Source: Streptosporangiaceae bacterium
GTDB lineage: Bacteria; Actinomycetota; Actinomycetes; Streptosporangiales; Streptosporangiaceae
NCBI GenBank assembly: GCA_025934375.1
Contig: JAICYD010000015.1
Span: 15,073-79,072 of the forward strand
DNA: 64,000 bases
Reading direction: 5' to 3'
Of this stretch, positions 7,126-11,532 are shown one piece after another. A program made the translations under genes and the position numbers. The notes under the pieces are model-generated. The model had not been told where the DNA came from and made no database searches. It was given only the letters and a program-made list of their open reading frames with translations. Position 1 is the stretch's first letter. Each line of letters starts with the position of its first letter.

Positions 7126-10100
7126 TCATTCGGGGATGGCTATCTGGGCGAGGCGCGCCCGGCCCGCTTCCACCAGCAGGCCGCGCCCGGGCGGGAACTC
7201 GCTGCGCCGTGACTTGGGGAACTCGGTCTTGAAGACCAGCGAGCCGTCGGCCGGCTCGGGCTGCAGCGCCAGGCCGGTGCGAGCGGACTTGACCGCGTTG
7301 AGCAGCGGCCAGCTCTGGCCCATCGCGGAGGTCTCTCCCTCGGCGATGACCAGGTGGCCGCCGCTGGCGAGCTTCTTGATCAGCGACCCCAGCGGCATGT
7401 CGGCCGGGGTGCCGAGGAATTCGTTGATGCCCTCGATGACCACGGCGAACGGCCGGCCGGAATCCCCGTCGCGGGTGATCTCCGCCTCCAGCTTGGCGGC
7501 CAGCTCGGCGGCCTCCTGCGGGTCGGTGGCGACCTGCTGCCAGGCGCCCAGTCCGATCAGCGGCGACCGCCGGCCGCCGAAGAACACCGGGACGGTCCGC
7601 GGCTGCGCCCGCGTCATCGCGATGACGACCGTCGCCACGGCGGTGGTGCGCCCGCTGGCCGGCGGCCCGCAGACCAGGAACACTCCCTCGGGCCGGAAGC
7701 CCGTCGCGGTCAGCGTGTCGTCGGCGATGCCGATGACCGGGCGCCCGTCCGCGGTGGCGGGCAGCTCGCTGAGCCGGACCAGCTCGGGCAGTTGCTCGAC
7801 CCGCGGCGCGGCCGCCAGCCCCCGCCGTCGCATCGCCCCGGCGAGCTGTGAGATGGCGCGGGCCTGCCCGATGTTGTCCGGTGCTCCGCCCAGCACCGCG
7901 ACCTGGAGCTCGGCGCCGCTGAGGACCGCGCGGCCAGCCGGAGCGTCGGGGCCGAGGATGCCGCGGCCGATGCCGGCCATCGCGTAGTCGTTCTCGTCGG
8001 CCAGCCGCATGATGAGGCGGCGCTGGATCGAGGAGGTGAGCCGGGCCGGCAGCGCCGACAGGCGGTCCGCGGTGACGATGACGTGGATGCCCAGGGGGCG
8101 CCCGTCGGCGGCCAGCGCGTTCAGCGCCTCGAACCACTTGCCGCCATCGAGCAGCTCGTACTGCTGCCGGAAGGCGGAGTAGCCGTCCAGGAGCACCAGG
8201 ATGCGTGGCTCGGCGGGCCGGCTGGCCAGCCGGCGGTAGTCGGTGATCGTTCCGGCGCGGACGCTGGCGAAGCGGCGGGCGCGATCGTCGGCGATGGCCA
8301 TCAGCGTGCGCAGCAGCCGGTTGATCCGGTCCCGTTCATCGGCGGCGATGATCGCGCCCACGTGCGGGAGCTCACCGAGCATGTCCAGGCCGCGGGAGCT
8401 GAAGTCGATGCCGTACACCTGGCAGGGGCCGCCGCGCACGGTGAAGCCGGCCGCGAGCGCCAGCGAGCGCAGCGCCGTTGACTTGCCGGCGCCCCCGGCC
8501 CCGATGATCGCCAGGTTCCCGTCCCGGTCCGGGTAGAACACCGAGGTCACCTGCCGCTGCCGGTCCGGCTCGTCGATCACGCCGAAGACAAGCTCGTCGT
8601 CACGTCGGCTGGAGGGCAGCCTGGCCAGGTCGTAGGCGGTCGCGAGCTCACTCAGCCACGGCCGGCGCGGGGCGGGCAGTTCGGCCTGCGCGGCCGCGCG
8701 CCGGATCGTGTCGGCAATCCGCTGGATATCTGTCGGACGCCGCGACGTCTGCGAGGCCGCGCCGCCGTCTTCGGGTGCCCGCCAGCGCTGGCCGGCGCCG
8801 ATGACGAGCTCCTCGATGGTCACGTCCGGGCGGCGGTGCCCGGTCGTCGTCCAGCCGCCGACGTACGCGGACTGGAACGGGACCAGGCGGCCGGGCCCGG
8901 TCTTGGAGACGGCCCGGCCGGGTAGCGCGGGGTCGATGTGCGCGGCCTCGGCCGAGCCGAGGACGTCGGAGCTGTCGGCCTCGTCGGCCACTCGCAGCGC
9001 GAGCCGCAGGTTCGTGTTCGCGCGCAGGTTGTCCTTGATCACCCCGGCCGGCCGCTGGGTGGCCAGGACGAGGTGCAGGCCGAGGGAGCGGCCGCGCTGG
9101 GCGACGTTGACGACGCCGTCGACGAAGTCGGGCACCTCCTGGATGAGCGCGGCGAACTCGTCGACCACGATCACCAGGCTGGGCGGGGTGTCCGGGTCAC
9201 CGGCCTTCTCCAGCTCGGGCAGGTCCTTGACCTTCTTGCGGGCGAACAGGTGCTCGCGGTAGGTGAGCTCGGCACCCAGCGAGACCAGCGCCCGGCGGAC
9301 CAGGTGCGGGCTGAGGTCGGTGACCAGGCCGACCGTGTGCGGCAGGTGGACGCAGTCGCGGAACGCCGACCCGCCCTTGTAGTCGACGAGCAGGAAGTTG
9401 ACCCGCTGCGGGCTGTGCGCCGCGGCCATGGCCAGGATCCAGGTCTGCAGCAGCTCGCTCTTGCCCGCGCCGGTGGTGCCGCCGAGCAGCGCGTGCGGGC
9501 CGTGCGCGCGCAGGTCCAGGGCGTGCGGGCCGGCGGCGGCGGCGCCGCCGCCGGCCCGCAGGCCCCCCGGCCGGCGCCGGCCGGCGGCCGGGGCGGCCGG
9601 GCCGGTGAGGATGGAGGTGGACTCCTGCCAGCGCTCGATCACCGCGGCGGGATCCTCGGCGAGCCGCGGGTCGGTCAGCTCCAGCCAGGAGACCGAGCGC
9701 GGCAGGTCGCTGTCATCGTCGAGTACCGCGCCCGCGTCGATCAGCGGGGACAGCAGCCGGCTGAACGACGTCGCGGTGGGCAAGTCGACCGCTTCGACGC
9801 CGACGTGCTGGGTGGTGATCCCTGTCAGGCCGTCAGCGATGACCGCGGTCCCGTCACCGCGGGCGTCGAGGTAGGCGGTGCAGGCGGCGGGCAGGTGCTC
9901 CGCGCGGGGGGCGACCCACAGGCAGTGGATGCCCGCCGCCGGGCCGACCCGGCTGAGCTCGACCAGGCGGGCGCGGTCAGCCTGGGCGCGGGCGTCGATC
10001 ATCACGACCACCGAGGCGCCGCCGGCACTGGCGGCGCCCGCCCCGCCCGGAGGAAGCGCCCGCGAGCGGGCCAGTTCCTCGAGCTGGCCGAGCAGCGCGG

Positions 10101-11532
10101 CCGACTCCGGCCCGGCGGCCAGGTGCGGGCCGGCCAGCGGGCTGTGCGCCGACGACGTGTGCGGCAGCCACTTCAGCCAGTCCCATTCCCGCTTGCCGTG
10201 CGGGCCGCAAAATCCGGCCACGATGACCTCGGCGGGCGAGTGCAGTGCCGCGAGCTGGCACAGCAGCGCACGGGCGGCGTCGAGCGAGGCGACCGGGTCG
10301 CCGACGACGCCGATGGACCCTTGCACGGTCAGTGACACGCCGAACGGCACGCGGTCGATCTGCCGGTACCGGGCCATGACCTCATCCAGCGCGGCGCCGG
10401 CGGCGGGCGCGGCGCGGCGCGGACTCCGCTGAATATCGAAGGTCAACCGCGAGGCCATGGTGGCCGTGCCCGCGCGCAGGTCCAGGAACCGGGGCGCGTC
10501 CGGGCGGCGACTCCACAGCAGCGGGCTACGGCGGGCGGCGGCCTCCAGGCAGTCCCGGGCGGGCGGGTTCTCGGCGTTGCGGGCGGCCCATTCGTCGGCG
10601 TGCGCCGCGCGGGCCGCCTCGTCGAGGGCGGCCAGCTCGCGGCGCAGGCCAGCCATCGAGGTGCGGTTGCCGCGCGAGGCGCTCCAGCGGCTCTCCAGCA
10701 CGTTGCCGAGCATCATCATCGGGCTGAGCGCGACGAACGACAGCGACGCGATGTTCCTGGTGATCGCGAACAGCACGCCGCCCATCAGCACGGGCGCGGC
10801 CAGCGCGATGAGCGGGAACCGCTGCCCGTGCTCGGCGTCGGGCAGCTCGGGGGCGGTGAGCTTCGGCCCGGCGTAGGTGGCGATGATCACCGGCGAGCGG
10901 TTGAACGCCGAGGGCGTCGCCGGCGGGACGGCATAGGCCCCCGAGGGGGGAGCGCCCGCCGAGACGCTGGTGAACTCGATGCCCAGCACGGTGTCGCCCA
11001 CCCGTAGCCGGTCCCCGGCGAGCCAGGCGCCCTTGGTGGCGGGCTGGTCGTTCAGCAGCAGGCCGTTGGCCGAGCCGAGGTCGAGGAACTCGGCCGAGGC
11101 GGGAGCCAGGAACACGCGAACGTGCCGGCGGGAGGCCAGGGTGTCCGACAGCCGCACGTCGCAGTCGGCCTGCCGGCCGATGGTCTGGTTGCCGGCCGGG
11201 AGCATCACGACGTGCCCGGCGTCCGGGCCCTGCAGCACGGTGATCCGCGCGACCGGGCGGGCCGACCGGTCGGCGGAGCGGCTGCCCGCCGGGCTGACCG
11301 CGATCCGGGCGCCGGACTTGATCCCGCTGTCGGCCAGGGTCAGCTCGGGGTCGAGGGTGACCCGGCTGCCGTCGATGAGGCTCAGCGTGTTGCTGTCGTC
11401 GGTGTGCCCGTGGGCACTGGGGTCGCGGGCGGCCAGCGCGTCGGCGACATCGCCGGCAGTGGCGTCCGCGTCCGTGGTGAGCACGAGGTCAACCTCACCG
11501 CTGACCCGCTCCAGCGTCACCTTGACCTTCAT
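7126..11532 (-). CDS. EssC/EccC-like FtsK/SpoIIIE-family secretion ATPase with N-terminal beta-grasp and FHA domains
   Basis: 1468 aa, in this order:
- a YukD/ubiquitin-like N-terminus (KVKVTLERVSGEVDLVL...LADSGIKSGARIAV);
- an FHA domain (IGRQADCDVRLSDTLASRRHVRVF...GSANGLLLND);
- two TM helices;
- three P-loop modules (GGTTGAGKSELL / VIVVDEF; GAGGAGKSTALR / LVLLDGY; GPPASGRTTAV / AVVIEGI). Confidence 0.9.
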   Translation of the reverse strand: MKVKVTLERVSGEVDLVLTTDADATAGDVADALAARDPSAHGHTDDSNTLSLIDGSRVTLDPELTLADSGIKSGARIAVSPAGSRSADRSARPVARITVLQGPDAGHVVMLPAGNQTIGRQADCDVRLSDTLASRRHVRVFLAPASAEFLDLGSANGLLLNDQPATKGAWLAGDRLRVGDTVLGIEFTSVSAGAPPSGAYAVPPATPSAFNRSPVIIATYAGPKLTAPELPDAEHGQRFPLIALAAPVLMGGVLFAITRNIASLSFVALSPMMMLGNVLESRWSASRGNRTSMAGLRRELAALDEAARAAHADEWAARNAENPPARDCLEAAARRSPLLWSRRPDAPRFLDLRAGTATMASRLTFDIQRSPRRAAPAAGAALDEVMARYRQIDRVPFGVSLTVQGSIGVVGDPVASLDAARALLCQLAALHSPAEVIVAGFCGPHGKREWDWLKWLPHTSSAHSPLAGPHLAAGPESAALLGQLEELARSRALPPGGAGAASAGGASVVVMIDARAQADRARLVELSRVGPAAGIHCLWVAPRAEHLPAACTAYLDARGDGTAVIADGLTGITTQHVGVEAVDLPTATSFSRLLSPLIDAGAVLDDDSDLPRSVSWLELTDPRLAEDPAAVIERWQESTSILTGPAAPAAGRRRPGGLRAGGGAAAAGPHALDLRAHGPHALLGGTTGAGKSELLQTWILAMAAAHSPQRVNFLLVDYKGGSAFRDCVHLPHTVGLVTDLSPHLVRRALVSLGAELTYREHLFARKKVKDLPELEKAGDPDTPPSLVIVVDEFAALIQEVPDFVDGVVNVAQRGRSLGLHLVLATQRPAGVIKDNLRANTNLRLALRVADEADSSDVLGSAEAAHIDPALPGRAVSKTGPGRLVPFQSAYVGGWTTTGHRRPDVTIEELVIGAGQRWRAPEDGGAASQTSRRPTDIQRIADTIRRAAAQAELPAPRRPWLSELATAYDLARLPSSRRDDELVFGVIDEPDRQRQVTSVFYPDRDGNLAIIGAGGAGKSTALRSLALAAGFTVRGGPCQVYGIDFSSRGLDMLGELPHVGAIIAADERDRINRLLRTLMAIADDRARRFASVRAGTITDYRRLASRPAEPRILVLLDGYSAFRQQYELLDGGKWFEALNALAADGRPLGIHVIVTADRLSALPARLTSSIQRRLIMRLADENDYAMAGIGRGILGPDAPAGRAVLSGAELQVAVLGGAPDNIGQARAISQLAGAMRRRGLAAAPRVEQLPELVRLSELPATADGRPVIGIADDTLTATGFRPEGVFLVCGPPASGRTTAVATVVIAMTRAQPRTVPVFFGGRRSPLIGLGAWQQVATDPQEAAELAAKLEAEITRDGDSGRPFAVVIEGINEFLGTPADMPLGSLIKKLASGGHLVIAEGETSAMGQSWPLLNAVKSARTGLALQPEPADGSLVFKTEFPKSRRSEFPPGRGLLVEAGRARLAQIAIPE

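What the first reader, a model, noticed from the sequence alone, without database searches (positions are those of the whole stretch)
7126..11532. Hybrid EssC/EccC architecture: beta-grasp, single FHA, two TM helices and three FtsK ATPase domains in one 1468-aa protein
The first ~85 aa (KVKVTLERVSGEVDLVLTTDADATAGDVADAL...TLADSGIKSGARIAV) follow the YukD/EccD-N ubiquitin-like pattern, ending in the typical L-x-D-x-G-I-x-x-G-x-x-I strand. A clear FHA domain comes next (GRQADCDVRL...SRRHVRVF...GSANGLLLND), followed by two TM helices and three Walker A/B modules.

Firmicute EssC carries N-terminal FHA domains, whereas actinobacterial EccC normally has none. The ubiquitin-like domain is usually a separate protein (YukD/EsaB) or is fused to EccD.

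Fusing both onto the ATPase in an actinobacterium would compensate for the missing EccD and YukD genes. It also provides a phospho-Thr reader that could couple to the kinase and phosphatase encoded upstream.
Basis: partly seen in the sequence, partly recalled or inferred. Interest (0 to 1): 0.65.

Follow-up and report, generated by a model that had tools for sequence, protein, structure and literature searches.

The report
Type VII secretion ATPase with fused ubiquitin-like domain
This gene encodes the motor of an actinobacterial type VII protein-secretion system that carries, fused to its own front end, a ubiquitin-like domain and a phospho-threonine-reading domain, and it sits in a conserved operon with a surface sensor, a kinase and a phosphatase; the kinase-coupled motor is already in the literature, the fused ubiquitin-like domain apparently is not.

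Summary
ORF 7126..11532 (-) encodes a 1468-aa protein. Its parts in order are a YukD/EccD-like beta-grasp (1-84), one canonical FHA domain (93-187), two TM helices (239-279), an EccC-type stalk/DUF region, and three FtsK-like P-loop domains.

Only D1 is catalytically intact. D2 lacks the Walker B glutamate, and D3 has Walker A K->R.

It is a secretion ATPase, not a DNA translocase.

Upstream, translationally coupled, is a cluster of PP2C, an FHA protein, a Ser/Thr kinase, a 2083-aa Ig/FN3 surface protein, MoxR, DUF58 and a transglutaminase. This matches the bifidobacterial 'PFNA' cluster and the 'Esr' threat-sensing pathway. That pathway was shown in 2026 to gate Esx secretion and is sometimes fused to EccC through FHA.

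The architecture is family-wide, in hundreds of Actinomycetota. By D1 phylogeny the family forms a clade separate from canonical EccC and from EssC/TsdC.

FHA-bearing actinobacterial T7SS ATPases and their kinase coupling are published. The cis-fused ubiquitin-like domain is not in the papers I could read; one of them reports T7SSd as lacking any Ubl.

Verdict: new variant of a known kind, moderate interest.

The parts
11281..11532 (-). Residues 1-84: YukD/EccD-like ubiquitin-like beta-grasp domain. It has no C-terminal Gly-Gly.
   Evidence: AF2 pLDDT 90-95. Foldseek matches ubiquitin and EccD5/EccD3/EccD1 Ubl. Pfam YukD is hit by 17/42 relatives. A profile search of 1.84 billion proteins found 399 representatives; nearly all of the 150 listed carry the domain at the N-terminus, many being ~1450-1530-aa proteins and most of the rest short fragments.
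10972..11256 (-). Residues 93-187: single canonical FHA domain, competent for phospho-threonine binding.
   Evidence: Pfam FHA and Yop-YscD_cpl. Foldseek matches GarA/OdhI at 32% identity and rmsd ~1.5 A. The GR/SxxH/NG motifs are 100% conserved.
10696..10818 (-). Residues 239-279: two transmembrane helices forming a hairpin.
   Evidence: Hydropathy. AF2 helices at 241-258 and 262-299.
9583..10695 (-). Residues ~280-650: stalk helix plus the EccC/EssC-type 'DUF' domain (ATPase-like, no P-loop).
   Evidence: Aligns to the EccC3 DUF (294-519), YukB (333-894) and T. curvata EccC (from residue 395) in the PDB sequence search. EccCa model TIGR03924 covers 228-893.
8833..9582 (-). Residues ~651-900: ATPase domain D1, the presumed motor. 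Walker A is GTTGAGKS at 685 and Walker B is VVDEF at 787-793.
   Evidence: Pfam FtsK_SpoIIIE 7e-53. Both motifs are 100% conserved, and mean identity to relatives is 83%.
7843..8655 (-). Residues ~960-1230: ATPase domain D2. Walker A (GAGGAGKS at 1011) is intact; Walker B is LLDG, lacking the catalytic Glu.
   Evidence: EccCb model TIGR03925 covers 941-1464.
7126..7785 (-). Residues ~1250-1468 plus the stop codon: ATPase-like domain D3, degenerate (Walker A GPPASGRT with K->R; Walker B VVIEG).
   Evidence: R is 98% conserved at the Lys position and E 98% at the Asp position.
6796..7068 (-). 90-aa WXG100 (EsxA-like) protein with WKG at residue 43 and a strong RBS, 57 nt downstream of the ATPase stop.
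   Evidence: Pfam WXG100 scores 29.1 bits, above the gathering score of 27.3. TIGR03930 E 2.6e-7. GC3 0.91. Sequence read. WXG100 homologues are found in most related loci, nearly always just downstream of the ATPase.
5810..6706 (-). 298-aa protein: an N-terminal WXG100-like hairpin (WRG at 43), a Gly/Ala-rich linker and a ~170-aa C-terminal domain of unknown fold. It is a candidate secreted substrate or effector.
   Evidence: Weak WXG100 hits (Pfam 17.6 bits; TIGR03930 E 1.2e-3). GC3 0.86. Homologues follow the WXG100 gene in L001, L018, L025 and L027. There is no PDB sequence match.
5194..5796 (-). 200-aa conserved ORF of unknown function, 14 nt after the 298-aa gene. It could be an immunity protein, a chaperone or an accessory protein.
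   Evidence: GC3 0.92. It is 48-55% identical in L001, L018, L027 and L066. No Pfam, NCBIfam or PDB hit.
11529..13937 (-). 802-aa TgpA-like transglutaminase with about 7+1 TM helices (EsrD/Tgm-like). Its TGA stop overlaps the ATPase ATG (ATGA).
   Evidence: Pfam Transglut_core and TgpA_N. TM scan. Overlap read.
13934..15124 (-). 396-aa DUF58 protein (the vWA-like partner of MoxR) with one N-terminal TM helix.
   Evidence: Pfam DUF58. TM scan.
15134..16126 (-). 330-aa MoxR-type AAA+ ATPase.
   Evidence: Pfam AAA_3 7e-63 and AAA_lid_2.
16139..22390 (-). 2083-aa surface protein with an N-terminal signal/anchor helix, Big_9, cadherin-like and FN3 repeats (EsrA/TsdI/FN3-like sensor).
   Evidence: Pfam Big_9 x6 and fn3 x3. 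Hydrophobic segment at 11-29.
22610..24469 (-). 619-aa Hanks-type Ser/Thr kinase with one TM helix (485-503) and a small extracytoplasmic domain (EsrE/TsdD/Pkb2-like).
   Evidence: Pfam Pkinase 9e-35. TM scan.
24466..26385 (-). FHA-output protein (EsrG-like): an N-terminal globular domain, a Pro-rich disordered region, a Cys/His zinc-ribbon-like motif and a C-terminal FHA. The true start is probably the Met that begins MADVSY (~548 aa), because the longer ORF overlaps the PP2C gene.
   Evidence: Pfam FHA 3e-8 at the C-terminus. Sequence read.
26105..26926 (-). 273-aa PP2C-type Ser/Thr phosphatase (EsrF/PrpC-like).
   Evidence: Pfam PP2C_2 3e-11.

Best explanation
The gene encodes the core translocase ATPase of a non-ESX, non-Ess type VII secretion system of Actinomycetota.

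Proposed mechanism:
1. A hexamer of the protein, with 12 TM helices in all, forms the membrane conduit.
2. D1 is the motor. D2 binds nucleotide without hydrolysing it. The degenerate D3 serves regulation or substrate docking.
3. The substrates are the WXG100 protein and the WXG100-domain fusion encoded immediately downstream.
4. In T7SSb the scaffold is supplied in trans by YukD/EsaB plus tandem degenerate FHA domains. In T7SSa it is supplied by the ubiquitin-like domain of EccD. Here it is built into the ATPase as an N-terminal ubiquitin-like domain followed by one phospho-threonine-competent FHA domain.
5. The FHA domain couples the machine to the co-transcribed Esr/PFNA-type sensory module. 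That module is a transglutaminase-anchored Ig/FN3 surface sensor, MoxR and DUF58, a membrane Ser/Thr kinase, a PP2C phosphatase and an FHA output protein.
6. An envelope or surface signal thereby controls assembly or gating of secretion post-translationally, through threonine phosphorylation.

Shown here:
- domain identities and motif conservation;
- ATPase clade placement;
- WXG100 adjacency;
- conserved synteny.

Shown by others in a homologous system: Esr2 is needed post-translationally for export of a subset of Esx substrates.

Inferred:
- the hexameric pore;
- the Ubl docking on the DUF or FHA;
- the identity of the phospho-ligand.
For: Secretion ATPase, not a translocase:
- EssC, EccCa and EccCb models score 506, 359 and 322 bits against FtsK at 58.
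- PDB EccC, EccC5 and YukB score 230, 197 and 190 bits against FtsK at 63, including alignment of the DUF region.

WXG100 substrates downstream:
- The WXG100 gene scores above the Pfam gathering score and starts 57 nt after the ATPase stop; a WXG-domain fusion follows it.
- One or two ~90-aa ORFs with WxG at residue ~43-46 follow the ATPase in most related loci.

N-terminal module:
- Ubl evidence. The family profile also weakly detects the Ubl of Streptomyces EccD.
- FHA with intact pThr motifs.

Family-wide architecture:
- 113 of 115 full-length relatives of the Buchananella protein carry the Ubl, as do nearly all family loci whose N-terminal region is present in the contig, from Janibacter, Cellulomonas, Georgenia, Microbacterium, Propionibacteriales, Actinomycetaceae, Bifidobacteriaceae, Microthrix and Acidiferrimicrobium.

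Synteny:
- FN3big-MoxR-DUF58-TGase lie upstream on the same strand as the ATPase, directly adjacent in about 20 and a few genes away in 3, of about 29 loci with enough upstream DNA. PP2C, FHA and kinase genes are often present too.
- The ATGA overlap with the transglutaminase gene indicates translational coupling.

Literature:
- YukD binds the YukB FHA domains, the DUF and a D1 hairpin, and is needed for assembly; the EccD Ubl binds the same DUF surface (PMC12637312).
- The Esr pathway is adjacent to esx in 40% of 3502 cases, EsrG is sometimes fused to EccC, and Esr2 gates AesA/AesB secretion post-translationally (PMC13622651).
- TsdC/TseC FHA domains keep the pThr motifs whereas EssC does not (PMC11217815).
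Against: - No experiment exists on this protein or on a demonstrably orthologous one. I could not obtain the S. odontolytica EccC sequence, so orthology to the studied system is unproven.
- All three NCBIfam EssC/EccC equivalog cut-offs are missed.
- Relative placement of the Ubl and FHA in the AF2 model is uncertain (pTM 0.48, linker pLDDT 64), so cis-docking is not shown.
- The window's own Ubl is below the Pfam YukD threshold.
- Some family loci (L001, L020, L027, L028, L036, L037) lack the MoxR-DUF58-TGase triad within 10 kb upstream, so the sensory coupling is frequent but not obligate.
- No other dedicated membrane component was identified. Either the ATPase suffices or partners are encoded elsewhere.
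Confidence: 0.72

Rival explanations
1. It is an ordinary member of the published T7SSd system, that is, a TsdC orthologue, and nothing about it is new.
For: Component list matches T7SSd as defined in PMC11217815:
- a WXG100 protein;
- an FHA-bearing ATPase with intact pThr motifs;
- a Ser/Thr kinase;
- a very large Sec-exported Ig-like protein.

T7SSd is restricted to Actinomycetota and reported in Bifidobacterium. Bifidobacteriaceae MAG proteins belong to the present family.
Against: - In a D1 neighbour-joining tree, O. uli TsdC falls inside the EssC/TscC-TsjC group (200/200 bootstraps). The present family is a separate split (200/200), and family+TsdC+TseC is never recovered (0/200).
- The window protein is only 27% identical to O. 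uli TsdC, no more than to S. aureus EssC, and the alignment starts at residue 70.
- The first 120 residues of TsdC are hit neither by the family Ubl profile nor by Pfam YukD.
- The T7SSd paper states that no ubiquitin-like protein exists at any T7SSd locus.
- MoxR, DUF58 and transglutaminase are not listed as T7SSd components.
Confidence: 0.2
2. It is a DNA translocase of the FtsK/SpoIIIE/TraB type, acting in chromosome segregation or conjugation, and its similarity to T7SS ATPases is only superfamily-level.
For: Public annotations of relatives read 'FtsK/SpoIIIE domain-containing protein' or 'DNA segregation ATPase'. The Pfam family hit is FtsK_SpoIIIE.
Against: - FtsK models and structures score about 58-63 bits, against 190-506 bits for EccC/EssC/YukB.
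- The protein has three tandem P-loop domains plus the EccC-type DUF, rather than one motor domain.
- No FtsK gamma or winged-helix DNA-binding domain was detected.
- WXG100 genes lie directly downstream in the window and in most relatives.
- The locus shows no conjugation genes.
Confidence: 0.03
3. The ATPase is a canonical ESX (T7SSa) EccC whose partners EccB, EccD, EccE and MycP are encoded elsewhere in the genome. The N-terminal domains would then be a lineage-specific decoration without a scaffold role.
For: - The host is an actinobacterium; the closest named relative is Trebonia, at 78% identity.
- EccCa and EccCb models match along the full length.
- Only 64 kb of the genome is visible.
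Against: - D1 is 30-41% identical to canonical EccC of Mycobacterium, Streptomyces and Corynebacterium, against 42-47% to EssC-type proteins. Canonical EccC forms its own split (200/200).
- No EccD-type ORF (Ubl plus multiple TM helices) was detected near the ATPase in any of the 42 family loci. Such ORFs are detected next to canonical eccC in the Streptomyces loci L046 and L047 with the same profile.
- The Ubl-FHA module is conserved at 52-60% mean identity across the family, comparable to D2 and D3. That argues for function rather than decoration.
Confidence: 0.05

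Closest known systems
Esx-linked Esr pathway of Actinomycetales (Esr2-Esx of Schaalia odontolytica; Wang et al., bioRxiv 2026, PMC13622651)
   Same: The gene set is the same at domain level:
- a Sec-exported filamentous Ig-repeat surface protein;
- MoxR;
- a vWA/DUF58 protein;
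- a transglutaminase;
- a Ser/Thr kinase;
- a PP2C phosphatase;
- an FHA output protein.

All are integrated with eccC and esxA/B. The paper reports FHA (EsrG) translationally fused to EccC in 'numerous instances', and post-translational gating of a subset of Esx substrates.
   Different: - That paper does not mention a ubiquitin-like domain (0 occurrences of ubiquitin, YukD or EccD).
- The sensor here shows Big_9, cadherin and FN3 repeats, and I did not test for a beta-propeller.
- The host is a Streptosporangiales-like soil or environmental lineage, outside the orders where Esr is said to be prevalent.
- Orthology to the S. odontolytica proteins could not be tested because no sequences were available.
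T7SSd TsdC (Olsenella uli and Bifidobacterium; Garrett, Higginson and Palmer 2024, PMC11217815)
   Same: - Both are actinobacterial T7SS ATPases with an N-terminal FHA whose GR/SxxH/NG motifs are conserved.
- Both are encoded with a Ser/Thr kinase, a huge Ig-like exported protein and a WXG100 protein.
- Neither has EccB/D/E or MycP.
   Different: - The D1 domain does not group with O. uli TsdC (0/200 bootstraps), and identity is only 27%.
- TsdC has a different ~120-aa N-terminal region in place of the Ubl.
- T7SSd was reported to lack any ubiquitin-like component.
- The MoxR, DUF58 and transglutaminase genes are not part of the T7SSd definition.
T7SSb EssC/YukB with YukD/EsaB (Bacillus subtilis cryo-EM, PDB 9QKS, PMC12637312)
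   Same: - The order FHA, two TM helices, stalk, DUF, D1-D3 is shared.
- D1 is 46% identical to S. aureus EssC, with 231 bits over residues 240-893.
- A ubiquitin-like domain works together with the FHA and DUF domains.
   Different: - Here the Ubl is covalently fused at the N-terminus, in the position where EssC has its first FHA domain.
- There is one FHA domain, not two.
- The FHA keeps the pThr-binding residues, which are 0% conserved in EssC.
- No EssA, EssB/YukC pseudokinase or EsaA/YueB is present; a real kinase is encoded instead.
T7SSa (ESX) EccC with EccD
   Same: - Both have the two TM helices, DUF and three P-loop domains.
- Both use an actinobacterial YukD-like Ubl, and the family Ubl profile weakly detects the Streptomyces EccD Ubl.
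- Foldseek matches EccD5, EccD3 and EccD1.
   Different: - In ESX the Ubl is fused to the 11-TM EccD, not to the ATPase.
- EccC has no FHA domain.
- EccB, EccD, EccE and MycP are absent from this locus.
- D1 is only 30-41% identical and forms a separate clade.
PFNA cluster of Bifidobacterium (pkb2-fn3-aaa-atp-duf58-tgm, with or without prpC and fha; PMC8430577)
   Same: [quoted passage not shown]
   Different: - The PFNA literature interprets the cluster as a host-cytokine sensor and does not connect it to a T7SS ATPase or to WXG100 genes.
- Here it is translationally coupled to them.

Membership tests
T7SS translocase ATPase (EccC/EssC/TsxC class of FtsK/SpoIIIE-like proteins) | Two N-terminal TM helices followed by a stalk and a DUF (degenerate ATPase-like) domain | tested here: met
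   TM helices at 239-257 and 261-279. Residues 294-519 align to the EccC3 DUF and 333-894 to YukB.
T7SS translocase ATPase (EccC/EssC/TsxC class of FtsK/SpoIIIE-like proteins) | Three tandem FtsK-like P-loop domains, with D1 carrying intact Walker A and B motifs | tested here: met
   Walker A sites at 685, 1011 and 1289. D1 motifs are 100% conserved; D2 and D3 are degenerate.
T7SS translocase ATPase (EccC/EssC/TsxC class of FtsK/SpoIIIE-like proteins) | Genetic linkage to at least one WXG100 (EsxA-type) gene | tested here: met
   ORF 6796..7068 scores 29.1 bits against Pfam WXG100, above the gathering score of 27.3. The linkage is conserved in relatives.
T7SS translocase ATPase (EccC/EssC/TsxC class of FtsK/SpoIIIE-like proteins) | Score above the NCBIfam equivalog cut-offs for EssC (TIGR03928), EccCa (TIGR03924) and EccCb (TIGR03925) | tested here: not met
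   506 against a cut-off of 778; 359 against 509; 321.6 against 346.6. It is a relative, not an equivalog of either named type.
T7SSa / ESX | EccB, EccD, EccE and mycosin genes at the locus | tested here: not met
   None was found among the Pfam-scanned genes of the window. In the family loci no ORF with an EccD-type Ubl plus multiple TM helices was detected.
T7SSb / Ess | Tandem FHA domains lacking pThr residues, a separate EsaB/YukD, the EssB pseudokinase, EssA and EsaA | tested here: not met
   There is a single FHA with intact motifs and the Ubl is fused. No EssA, EssB or EsaA homologue was detected in the window.
T7SSd (Garrett et al. 2024) | TsdA WXG100, TsdC with a pThr-competent FHA, TsdD kinase and TsdI large exported Ig-like protein | tested here: met
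   The 2083-aa protein has an N-terminal hydrophobic segment, but no C-terminal TM helix was found.
T7SSd (Garrett et al. 2024) | The ATPase groups phylogenetically with TsdC (O. uli type) | tested here: not met
   D1 NJ tree: family+TsdC+TseC was recovered in 0 of 200 bootstraps, and TsdC lies within the EssC-like split (200/200). Caveats: the TsdC sequence was taken from an OCR'd supplementary figure, and only one TsdC was tested.
T7SSd (Garrett et al. 2024) | TsdH, a small single-TM protein | not tested
   No sequence or model of TsdH was available.
Esr (epibiont sensing and response) pathway linked to Esx (Wang et al. 2026) | A complete set of EsrA-G-type genes (surface Ig-repeat sensor, MoxR, vWA/DUF58, transglutaminase, Ser/Thr kinase, phosphatase, FHA output protein) adjacent to eccC and esx genes | tested here: met
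   Domain-level match for all seven genes, on one strand and contiguous with the ATPase.
Esr (epibiont sensing and response) pathway linked to Esx (Wang et al. 2026) | Orthology to the S. odontolytica Esr/EccC proteins, and the beta-propeller head on EsrA | not testable with these tools
   The preprint's sequences and supplementary tables are not held. The nearest proxy is Buchananella (Actinomycetaceae), whose ATPase has the same Ubl-FHA architecture.
YukD/EsaB-type ubiquitin-like domain (Pfam PF08817) | Beta-grasp fold related to YukD/EccD-N, with no C-terminal Gly-Gly | tested here: met
   AF2 and Foldseek. Pfam YukD is hit by 17/42 relatives, best E 3e-7. The domain is followed by SPAGSRS, with no GG.
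YukD/EsaB-type ubiquitin-like domain (Pfam PF08817) | Pfam gathering score reached by the window's own sequence | tested here: not met
   17.6 bits against a gathering score of 27. None of the listed relatives carries a precomputed PF08817 annotation.
Phospho-threonine-binding FHA domain | GR, SxxH and NG motifs, and the FHA beta-sandwich | tested here: met
   G119 R120, S134 H137 and N156 G157 are 100% conserved. Rmsd to GarA is 1.4-1.5 A. Actual phosphopeptide binding was not tested.
FtsK/SpoIIIE DNA translocase | A single motor domain with a C-terminal gamma (DNA-recognition) domain, scoring best against FtsK | tested here: not met
   FtsK scores 58 bits (NCBIfam) and 63 bits (PDB), covering part of D1 only. 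No FtsK_gamma hit was found.

The most novel reading that the evidence does not exclude
This family is a third major lineage of type VII secretion, distinct from ESX/T7SSa and from the Ess-like T7SSb-j group that includes TsdC.

In it the ATPase is the only dedicated membrane component. The fused Ubl-FHA module acts as a phospho-switch. Binding of a kinase-generated phospho-threonine would reposition the cis-Ubl on the DUF or D1 surface, and that would license hexamer assembly or channel opening. The phospho-threonine could sit on the EsrG-like protein, on the kinase juxtamembrane region, or on the ATPase's own linker.

This reading would also explain why no ubiquitin-like protein was found for FHA-type actinobacterial T7SS: it is hidden inside the ATPase.
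Probability: 0.3. Interest if true: 0.7.

Novelty: new variant of a known kind. Interest (0 to 1): 0.45.

Why it matters
Every well-studied T7SS needs a ubiquitin-like element, YukD/EsaB in trans or the EccD N-domain. The 2024 survey of T7SS variants singled out the actinobacterial FHA-type system as the one exception.

In a large, widely distributed actinobacterial family, the Ubl is covalently attached to the ATPase, directly in front of a phospho-threonine-competent FHA domain. Three things follow:
- The fusion is natural 'Rosetta-stone' support for the Ubl-FHA-ATPase contacts seen by cryo-EM in Bacillus.
- It suggests that the exception may be only apparent, at least for part of these systems.
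- It offers a compact single-polypeptide target for working out how Ser/Thr phosphorylation gates type VII secretion.

The finding also ties three separately described entities into one conserved operon: the bifidobacterial PFNA cluster, the T7SSd-like systems and the Esr threat-sensing pathway.

The protein itself is not rare, and its general function is predictable, so the finding refines existing knowledge and does not overturn it.

Tried and rejected
- **N-terminal-only homology search.** Residues 1-356 returned only 16 hits, mostly frameshifted fragments, because the word prefilter was swamped. I replaced it with the full-length search and the exhaustive profile search.
- **Fold search with the 300-residue model.** FHA matches dominated and said nothing about the Ubl. 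I therefore modelled residues 1-84 separately.
- **Does O. uli TsdC hide the same Ubl?** I rebuilt its N-terminal ~970 residues from an OCR'd supplementary alignment. Neither the family Ubl HMM nor Pfam detected a Ubl or a first FHA in residues 1-120.
- **Function of the 298-aa C-terminal domain and the 200-aa ORF.** Pfam, NCBIfam and PDB sequence searches gave nothing.
- **Aravind's MoxR-vWA ternary conflict systems (PMC7159879) as the exact framework.** The FtsK domains mentioned there are inactive effector domains fused to vWA proteins, which is not this architecture.
- **Conjugatable ubiquitin-like modifier.** Rejected: there is no C-terminal Gly-Gly, and the domain is internal to a polypeptide.
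- **Gene-fusion artefact between a small Ubl gene and the ATPase.** Rejected: the reading frame is continuous in nearly all family loci that include the N-terminal region and in 113 of 115 relatives.

Full report
**1. What is in the sequence**

The minus-strand ORF 7126..11532 is real: 1468 codons, an ATG start and third-position GC of 0.95. Its ATG overlaps the TGA of the upstream transglutaminase gene (ATGA).

Pfam finds one FHA domain (residues 117-180; E 8e-9, and 1.5e-13 for the related Yop-YscD_cpl model). It also finds FtsK_SpoIIIE (E 7e-53, two stretches) and further P-loop signals near residues 680 and 1005.

**2. The N-terminal domain**

Relatives down to 30-48% identity conserve a block with the consensus MKxKxTLxR..G.VDLVxTxDAxATVGDLAxxL..DP...TL.....LDP....ADSGxxSGAxVxV.

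- AlphaFold2 on residues 1-300 (47 sequences) gave mean pLDDT 83.9. Residues 1-40 and 61-80 scored 89-95 and the intervening loop 81-88, with topology beta(2-8)-beta(13-19)-alpha(26-35)-beta(48-54)-beta(56-59)-beta(75-81).
- A separate model of residues 1-84 gave pLDDT 90.4 and pTM 0.80.
- Foldseek against the PDB returned ubiquitin, EccD5 of the ESX-5 complex (7b9f_X, TMq 0.69, 21% identity), EccD3 (6umm_B), the EccD5 N-domain (7npt_D8) and the EccD1 ubiquitin-like domain (4kv3).
- Pfam YukD (PF08817) is matched over its whole length by 17 of 42 family members, best E 3e-7. The window's copy scores 17.6 bits, below the gathering score of 27. The other recurrent hits, TmoB and the OTU1 UBX-like domain, are also beta-grasps.
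- The family profile hits a ubiquitin redesign in the PDB at E 5e-5.
- The same profile weakly detects the Ubl of the ~10-11-TM EccD proteins next to canonical eccC in two Streptomyces/Kitasatospora loci.
- There is no Gly-Gly after the domain.

**3. The FHA domain**

Its best structural matches are GarA and OdhI (32% identity, rmsd 1.4-1.5 A, TM to target 0.82-0.90). The three phospho-threonine-binding motifs are invariant in 113 aligned relatives: G119-R120, S134-x-x-H137 and N156-G157.

This differs from firmicute EssC, where the GR and SxxH motifs are 0% conserved. It resembles the T7SSd and T7SSe ATPases, where the three motifs are 90-100% conserved (Table S1 of PMC11217815).

**4. Membrane and ATPase parts**

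- Two hydrophobic helices lie at 239-257 and 261-279.
- Residues ~294-519 align to the EccC3 DUF domain, 333-894 to B. subtilis YukB, and 395-1275 to T. curvata EccC.
- D1 has Walker A GTTGAGKS (685) and Walker B VVDEF, both 100% conserved, and is 83% identical on average across the family.
- D2 has an intact Walker A (1011), but its Walker B is D-G, with Gly in 99%.
- D3 has GPPASGRT, with Arg in place of Lys in 98%, and E-G at Walker B.

'Three Walker A/B modules' is thus correct as a pattern, but only D1 looks hydrolytic.

**5. Secretion ATPase or DNA pump?**

- NCBIfam: EssC 506 bits, EccCa 359 and EccCb 322, against FtsK 58. All three T7SS scores are below their equivalog cut-offs.
- PDB: EccC 230 bits, EccC5 197 and YukB 190, against FtsK 63.
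- I built a neighbour-joining tree of D1. It used eight family members plus two outlying relatives (Nocardioides L042, Kineococcus L053). It also used seven canonical EccC sequences from fetched Streptomyces, Kitasatospora, Mycobacterium, Corynebacterium and other loci, and ten TsxC/EccC/EssC sequences transcribed from Fig. S2 of PMC11217815.
  - The tree gives three splits, each with 200/200 bootstrap support: canonical EccC; EssC plus TscC-TsjC, including O. uli TsdC; and the present family.
  - Family+TsdC+TseC is recovered 0/200 times.
- D1 identity of the window protein is 42-47% to the EssC-type group and 30-41% to canonical EccC.

'Hybrid' is a fair informal description. More precisely, this is a distinct clade.

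**6.

Three genes with GC3 of 0.86-0.92 lie on the same strand immediately downstream.

- 6796..7068 encodes a 90-aa protein with WKG at residue 43 and a strong Shine-Dalgarno sequence. It passes the Pfam WXG100 gathering score (29.1 against 27.3).
- 5810..6706 encodes 298 aa: a WXG100-like N-terminal hairpin (WRG at 43), a Gly/Ala-rich linker and an uncharacterised ~170-aa C-terminal domain.
- 5194..5796 encodes a conserved 200-aa protein with no family match.

In most related loci, one or two ~90-aa ORFs with WxG at residue ~43-46 follow the ATPase. This is the strongest contextual evidence that the ATPase is a type VII translocase.

**7. Upstream context**

All on the same strand are the following genes:
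- a PP2C phosphatase;
- an FHA-output protein (disordered Pro-rich centre, zinc-ribbon-like motif, C-terminal FHA);
- a membrane Ser/Thr kinase;
- a 2083-aa Big_9/cadherin/FN3 surface protein;
- MoxR;
- DUF58;
- a multi-TM TgpA-like transglutaminase.

The rest of the 64-kb window is housekeeping (xseA, glpX, fumarase, ABC transporters, regulators). It contains no EccB/D/E, MycP, EssA/B or EsaA genes.

**8. Distribution and synteny**

- The full-length search found more than 426 relatives of ~1450-1500 aa with FHA plus FtsK Pfam annotation. The nearest named one is Trebonia (78%; Streptosporangiales).
- A scan of species-representative genomes gave 42 family loci. They come from Janibacter, Marihabitans, Propioniciclava, Propionicimonas, Nakamurella, Microbacterium, Buchananella, Candidatus Microthrix, Acidiferrimicrobium and others. 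Canonical EccC matched only residues ~300-1466, at 28-31%.
- A search from the Buchananella protein added Cellulomonas, Georgenia, Isoptericola, Cellulosimicrobium, Brachybacterium, Herbiconiux, Leifsonia, and Bifidobacteriaceae and Actinomycetaceae MAGs.
- The Ubl profile hits the N-terminus in nearly all family loci that include that region, and in 113 of 115 full-length proteins of that set. The two exceptions lack the N-terminal ~50 residues.
- The exhaustive profile search found 399 representative proteins. Nearly all of the 150 listed carry the domain at the very N-terminus.
- The FN3-MoxR-DUF58-transglutaminase block lies upstream of the ATPase in about 23 of about 29 loci with enough upstream sequence, often preceded by PP2C, FHA and kinase genes.

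**9. What is already known**

- *PMC8430577* describes the Bifidobacterium 'PFNA' cluster (pkb2-fn3-aaa-atp-duf58-tgm, with or without prpC and fha). The genes and their order are the same, but the paper makes no link to secretion.
- *PMC11217815 (2024)* defines T7SSd in Actinomycetota. Its components are TsdC with pThr-competent FHA, a kinase, a large Ig-like exported protein and a WXG100 protein. It states explicitly that no ubiquitin-like protein could be found at any T7SSd locus or elsewhere in those genomes.
- *PMC13622651 (preprint, September 2026)* concerns the Esr pathway in Schaalia odontolytica.
  - The pathway comprises an Ig-repeat sensor anchored by a transglutaminase, MoxR, a vWA protein, a kinase, a phosphatase and the FHA output protein EsrG.
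  - It senses Saccharibacteria epibionts.
  - 40% of 3502 Esr loci abut esx genes, and EsrG is in 'numerous instances' fused to EccC.
  - The Esx-linked Esr2 copy is required post-translationally for export of two effectors but not of EsxA/B.
  - The paper never mentions a ubiquitin-like domain.
- *PMC12637312* shows by cryo-EM that YukD clamps the FHA domains, the DUF and a D1 hairpin of YukB, and is required for assembly. It also shows that the EccD Ubl binds the same DUF surface in ESX.
- *PMC1779556 (2006)* states that actinobacterial YukD domains are 'always fused' to the 12-TM protein.

No paper in the held library describes a YukD-like domain fused to a T7SS ATPase.

**10. Interpretation**

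The best-supported reading is a sensor-coupled type VII secretion system. Its translocase carries its own ubiquitin-like scaffold and a phospho-threonine reader.

- Shown here: the domain identities, the motif conservation, the clade, the WXG100 linkage and the synteny.
- Borrowed from published work on homologous systems: that the Ubl contacts the FHA, DUF and D1 domains, and that the Esr module gates secretion post-translationally.
- Inferred: cis-docking of the Ubl, the identity of the phospho-ligand, and whether the ATPase alone forms the channel. The AF2 inter-domain geometry is not reliable (pTM 0.48).

**11. Novelty and score**

The protein is one of hundreds of orthologues, and its general role is predictable. 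FHA-bearing actinobacterial T7SS ATPases and their kinase coupling are published. The element that appears undescribed is the cis-fused YukD-like domain. It bears directly on a stated puzzle, T7SSd as the only T7SS without a Ubl. However, the single TsdC I could test (O. uli) belongs to another clade and shows no detectable Ubl.

I rate this a new variant of a known kind, with interest 0.45.

Noticed in passing
window 5194..7068 (-): Directly downstream of the ATPase are three genes: a 90-aa WXG100 gene; a 298-aa gene whose N-terminus is a WXG100-like hairpin fused to an uncharacterised ~170-aa C-terminal domain; and a conserved 200-aa ORF with no family match. In most relatives the second gene is a plain ~90-aa WXG protein, so the window carries an extended, effector-like version.
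   Followed up: partly
window 24466..26385 (-): The EsrG-like FHA protein has a Cys/His zinc-ribbon-like motif (CLAGH...CRVCG) just before its FHA domain and a long Pro-rich disordered centre. The longest ORF overlaps the PP2C gene by 281 nt, so the true start is probably the internal Met that begins MADVSY (~548 aa).
   Followed up: partly
window 11529..11532; proteins P0023, P0158, P0211: The transglutaminase stop and the ATPase start overlap (ATGA). One relative, P0023, is recorded as a 1790-aa transglutaminase-ATPase fusion. Two other proteins, P0158 and P0211, carry the Ubl internally (at residues 521-613 and 794-880). These may be real fusions or read-through and frameshift artefacts.
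   Followed up: no
L001 and L027 (both on contig CAVPIM010000017.1): One MAG carries two paralogous copies of the ATPase locus about 65 kb apart, each 70% identical to the window protein. In both, PP2C and FHA genes lie directly upstream, and no MoxR-DUF58-transglutaminase block occurs within 10 kb.
   Followed up: no
L042:9947-14245 (Nocardioides flavescens): The Ubl-FHA-TM module sits in a separate 304-aa ORF, followed by an 1112-aa ORF with the rest of the ATPase. This is either a natural split or a frameshift. In this locus the MoxR-DUF58-transglutaminase genes lie downstream instead of upstream.
   Followed up: no
window 7126..7785 (-), residue 1295: The D3 Walker A lysine is replaced by arginine in 98% of 113 relatives, and the Walker B aspartate by glutamate. 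This is a conserved, not random, degeneration, which suggests a retained nucleotide- or substrate-sensing role.
   Followed up: partly
window 33457..36459 (+): A second, 1000-aa Ser/Thr protein kinase is encoded about 7 kb beyond the PP2C end of the operon, on the opposite strand, next to a class I fumarase.
   Followed up: no
window 43126..44995 (+) and 57979..58788 (+): There are two paralogous SAM-dependent Methyltransf_19 genes. The first is paired with an HTH_31 + DUF5753 regulator.
   Followed up: no
window 51433..53535 (-) and 56964..57998 (+): Two well-supported ORFs by GC3, of 700 aa and 344 aa, have no significant Pfam or NCBIfam match.
   Followed up: no
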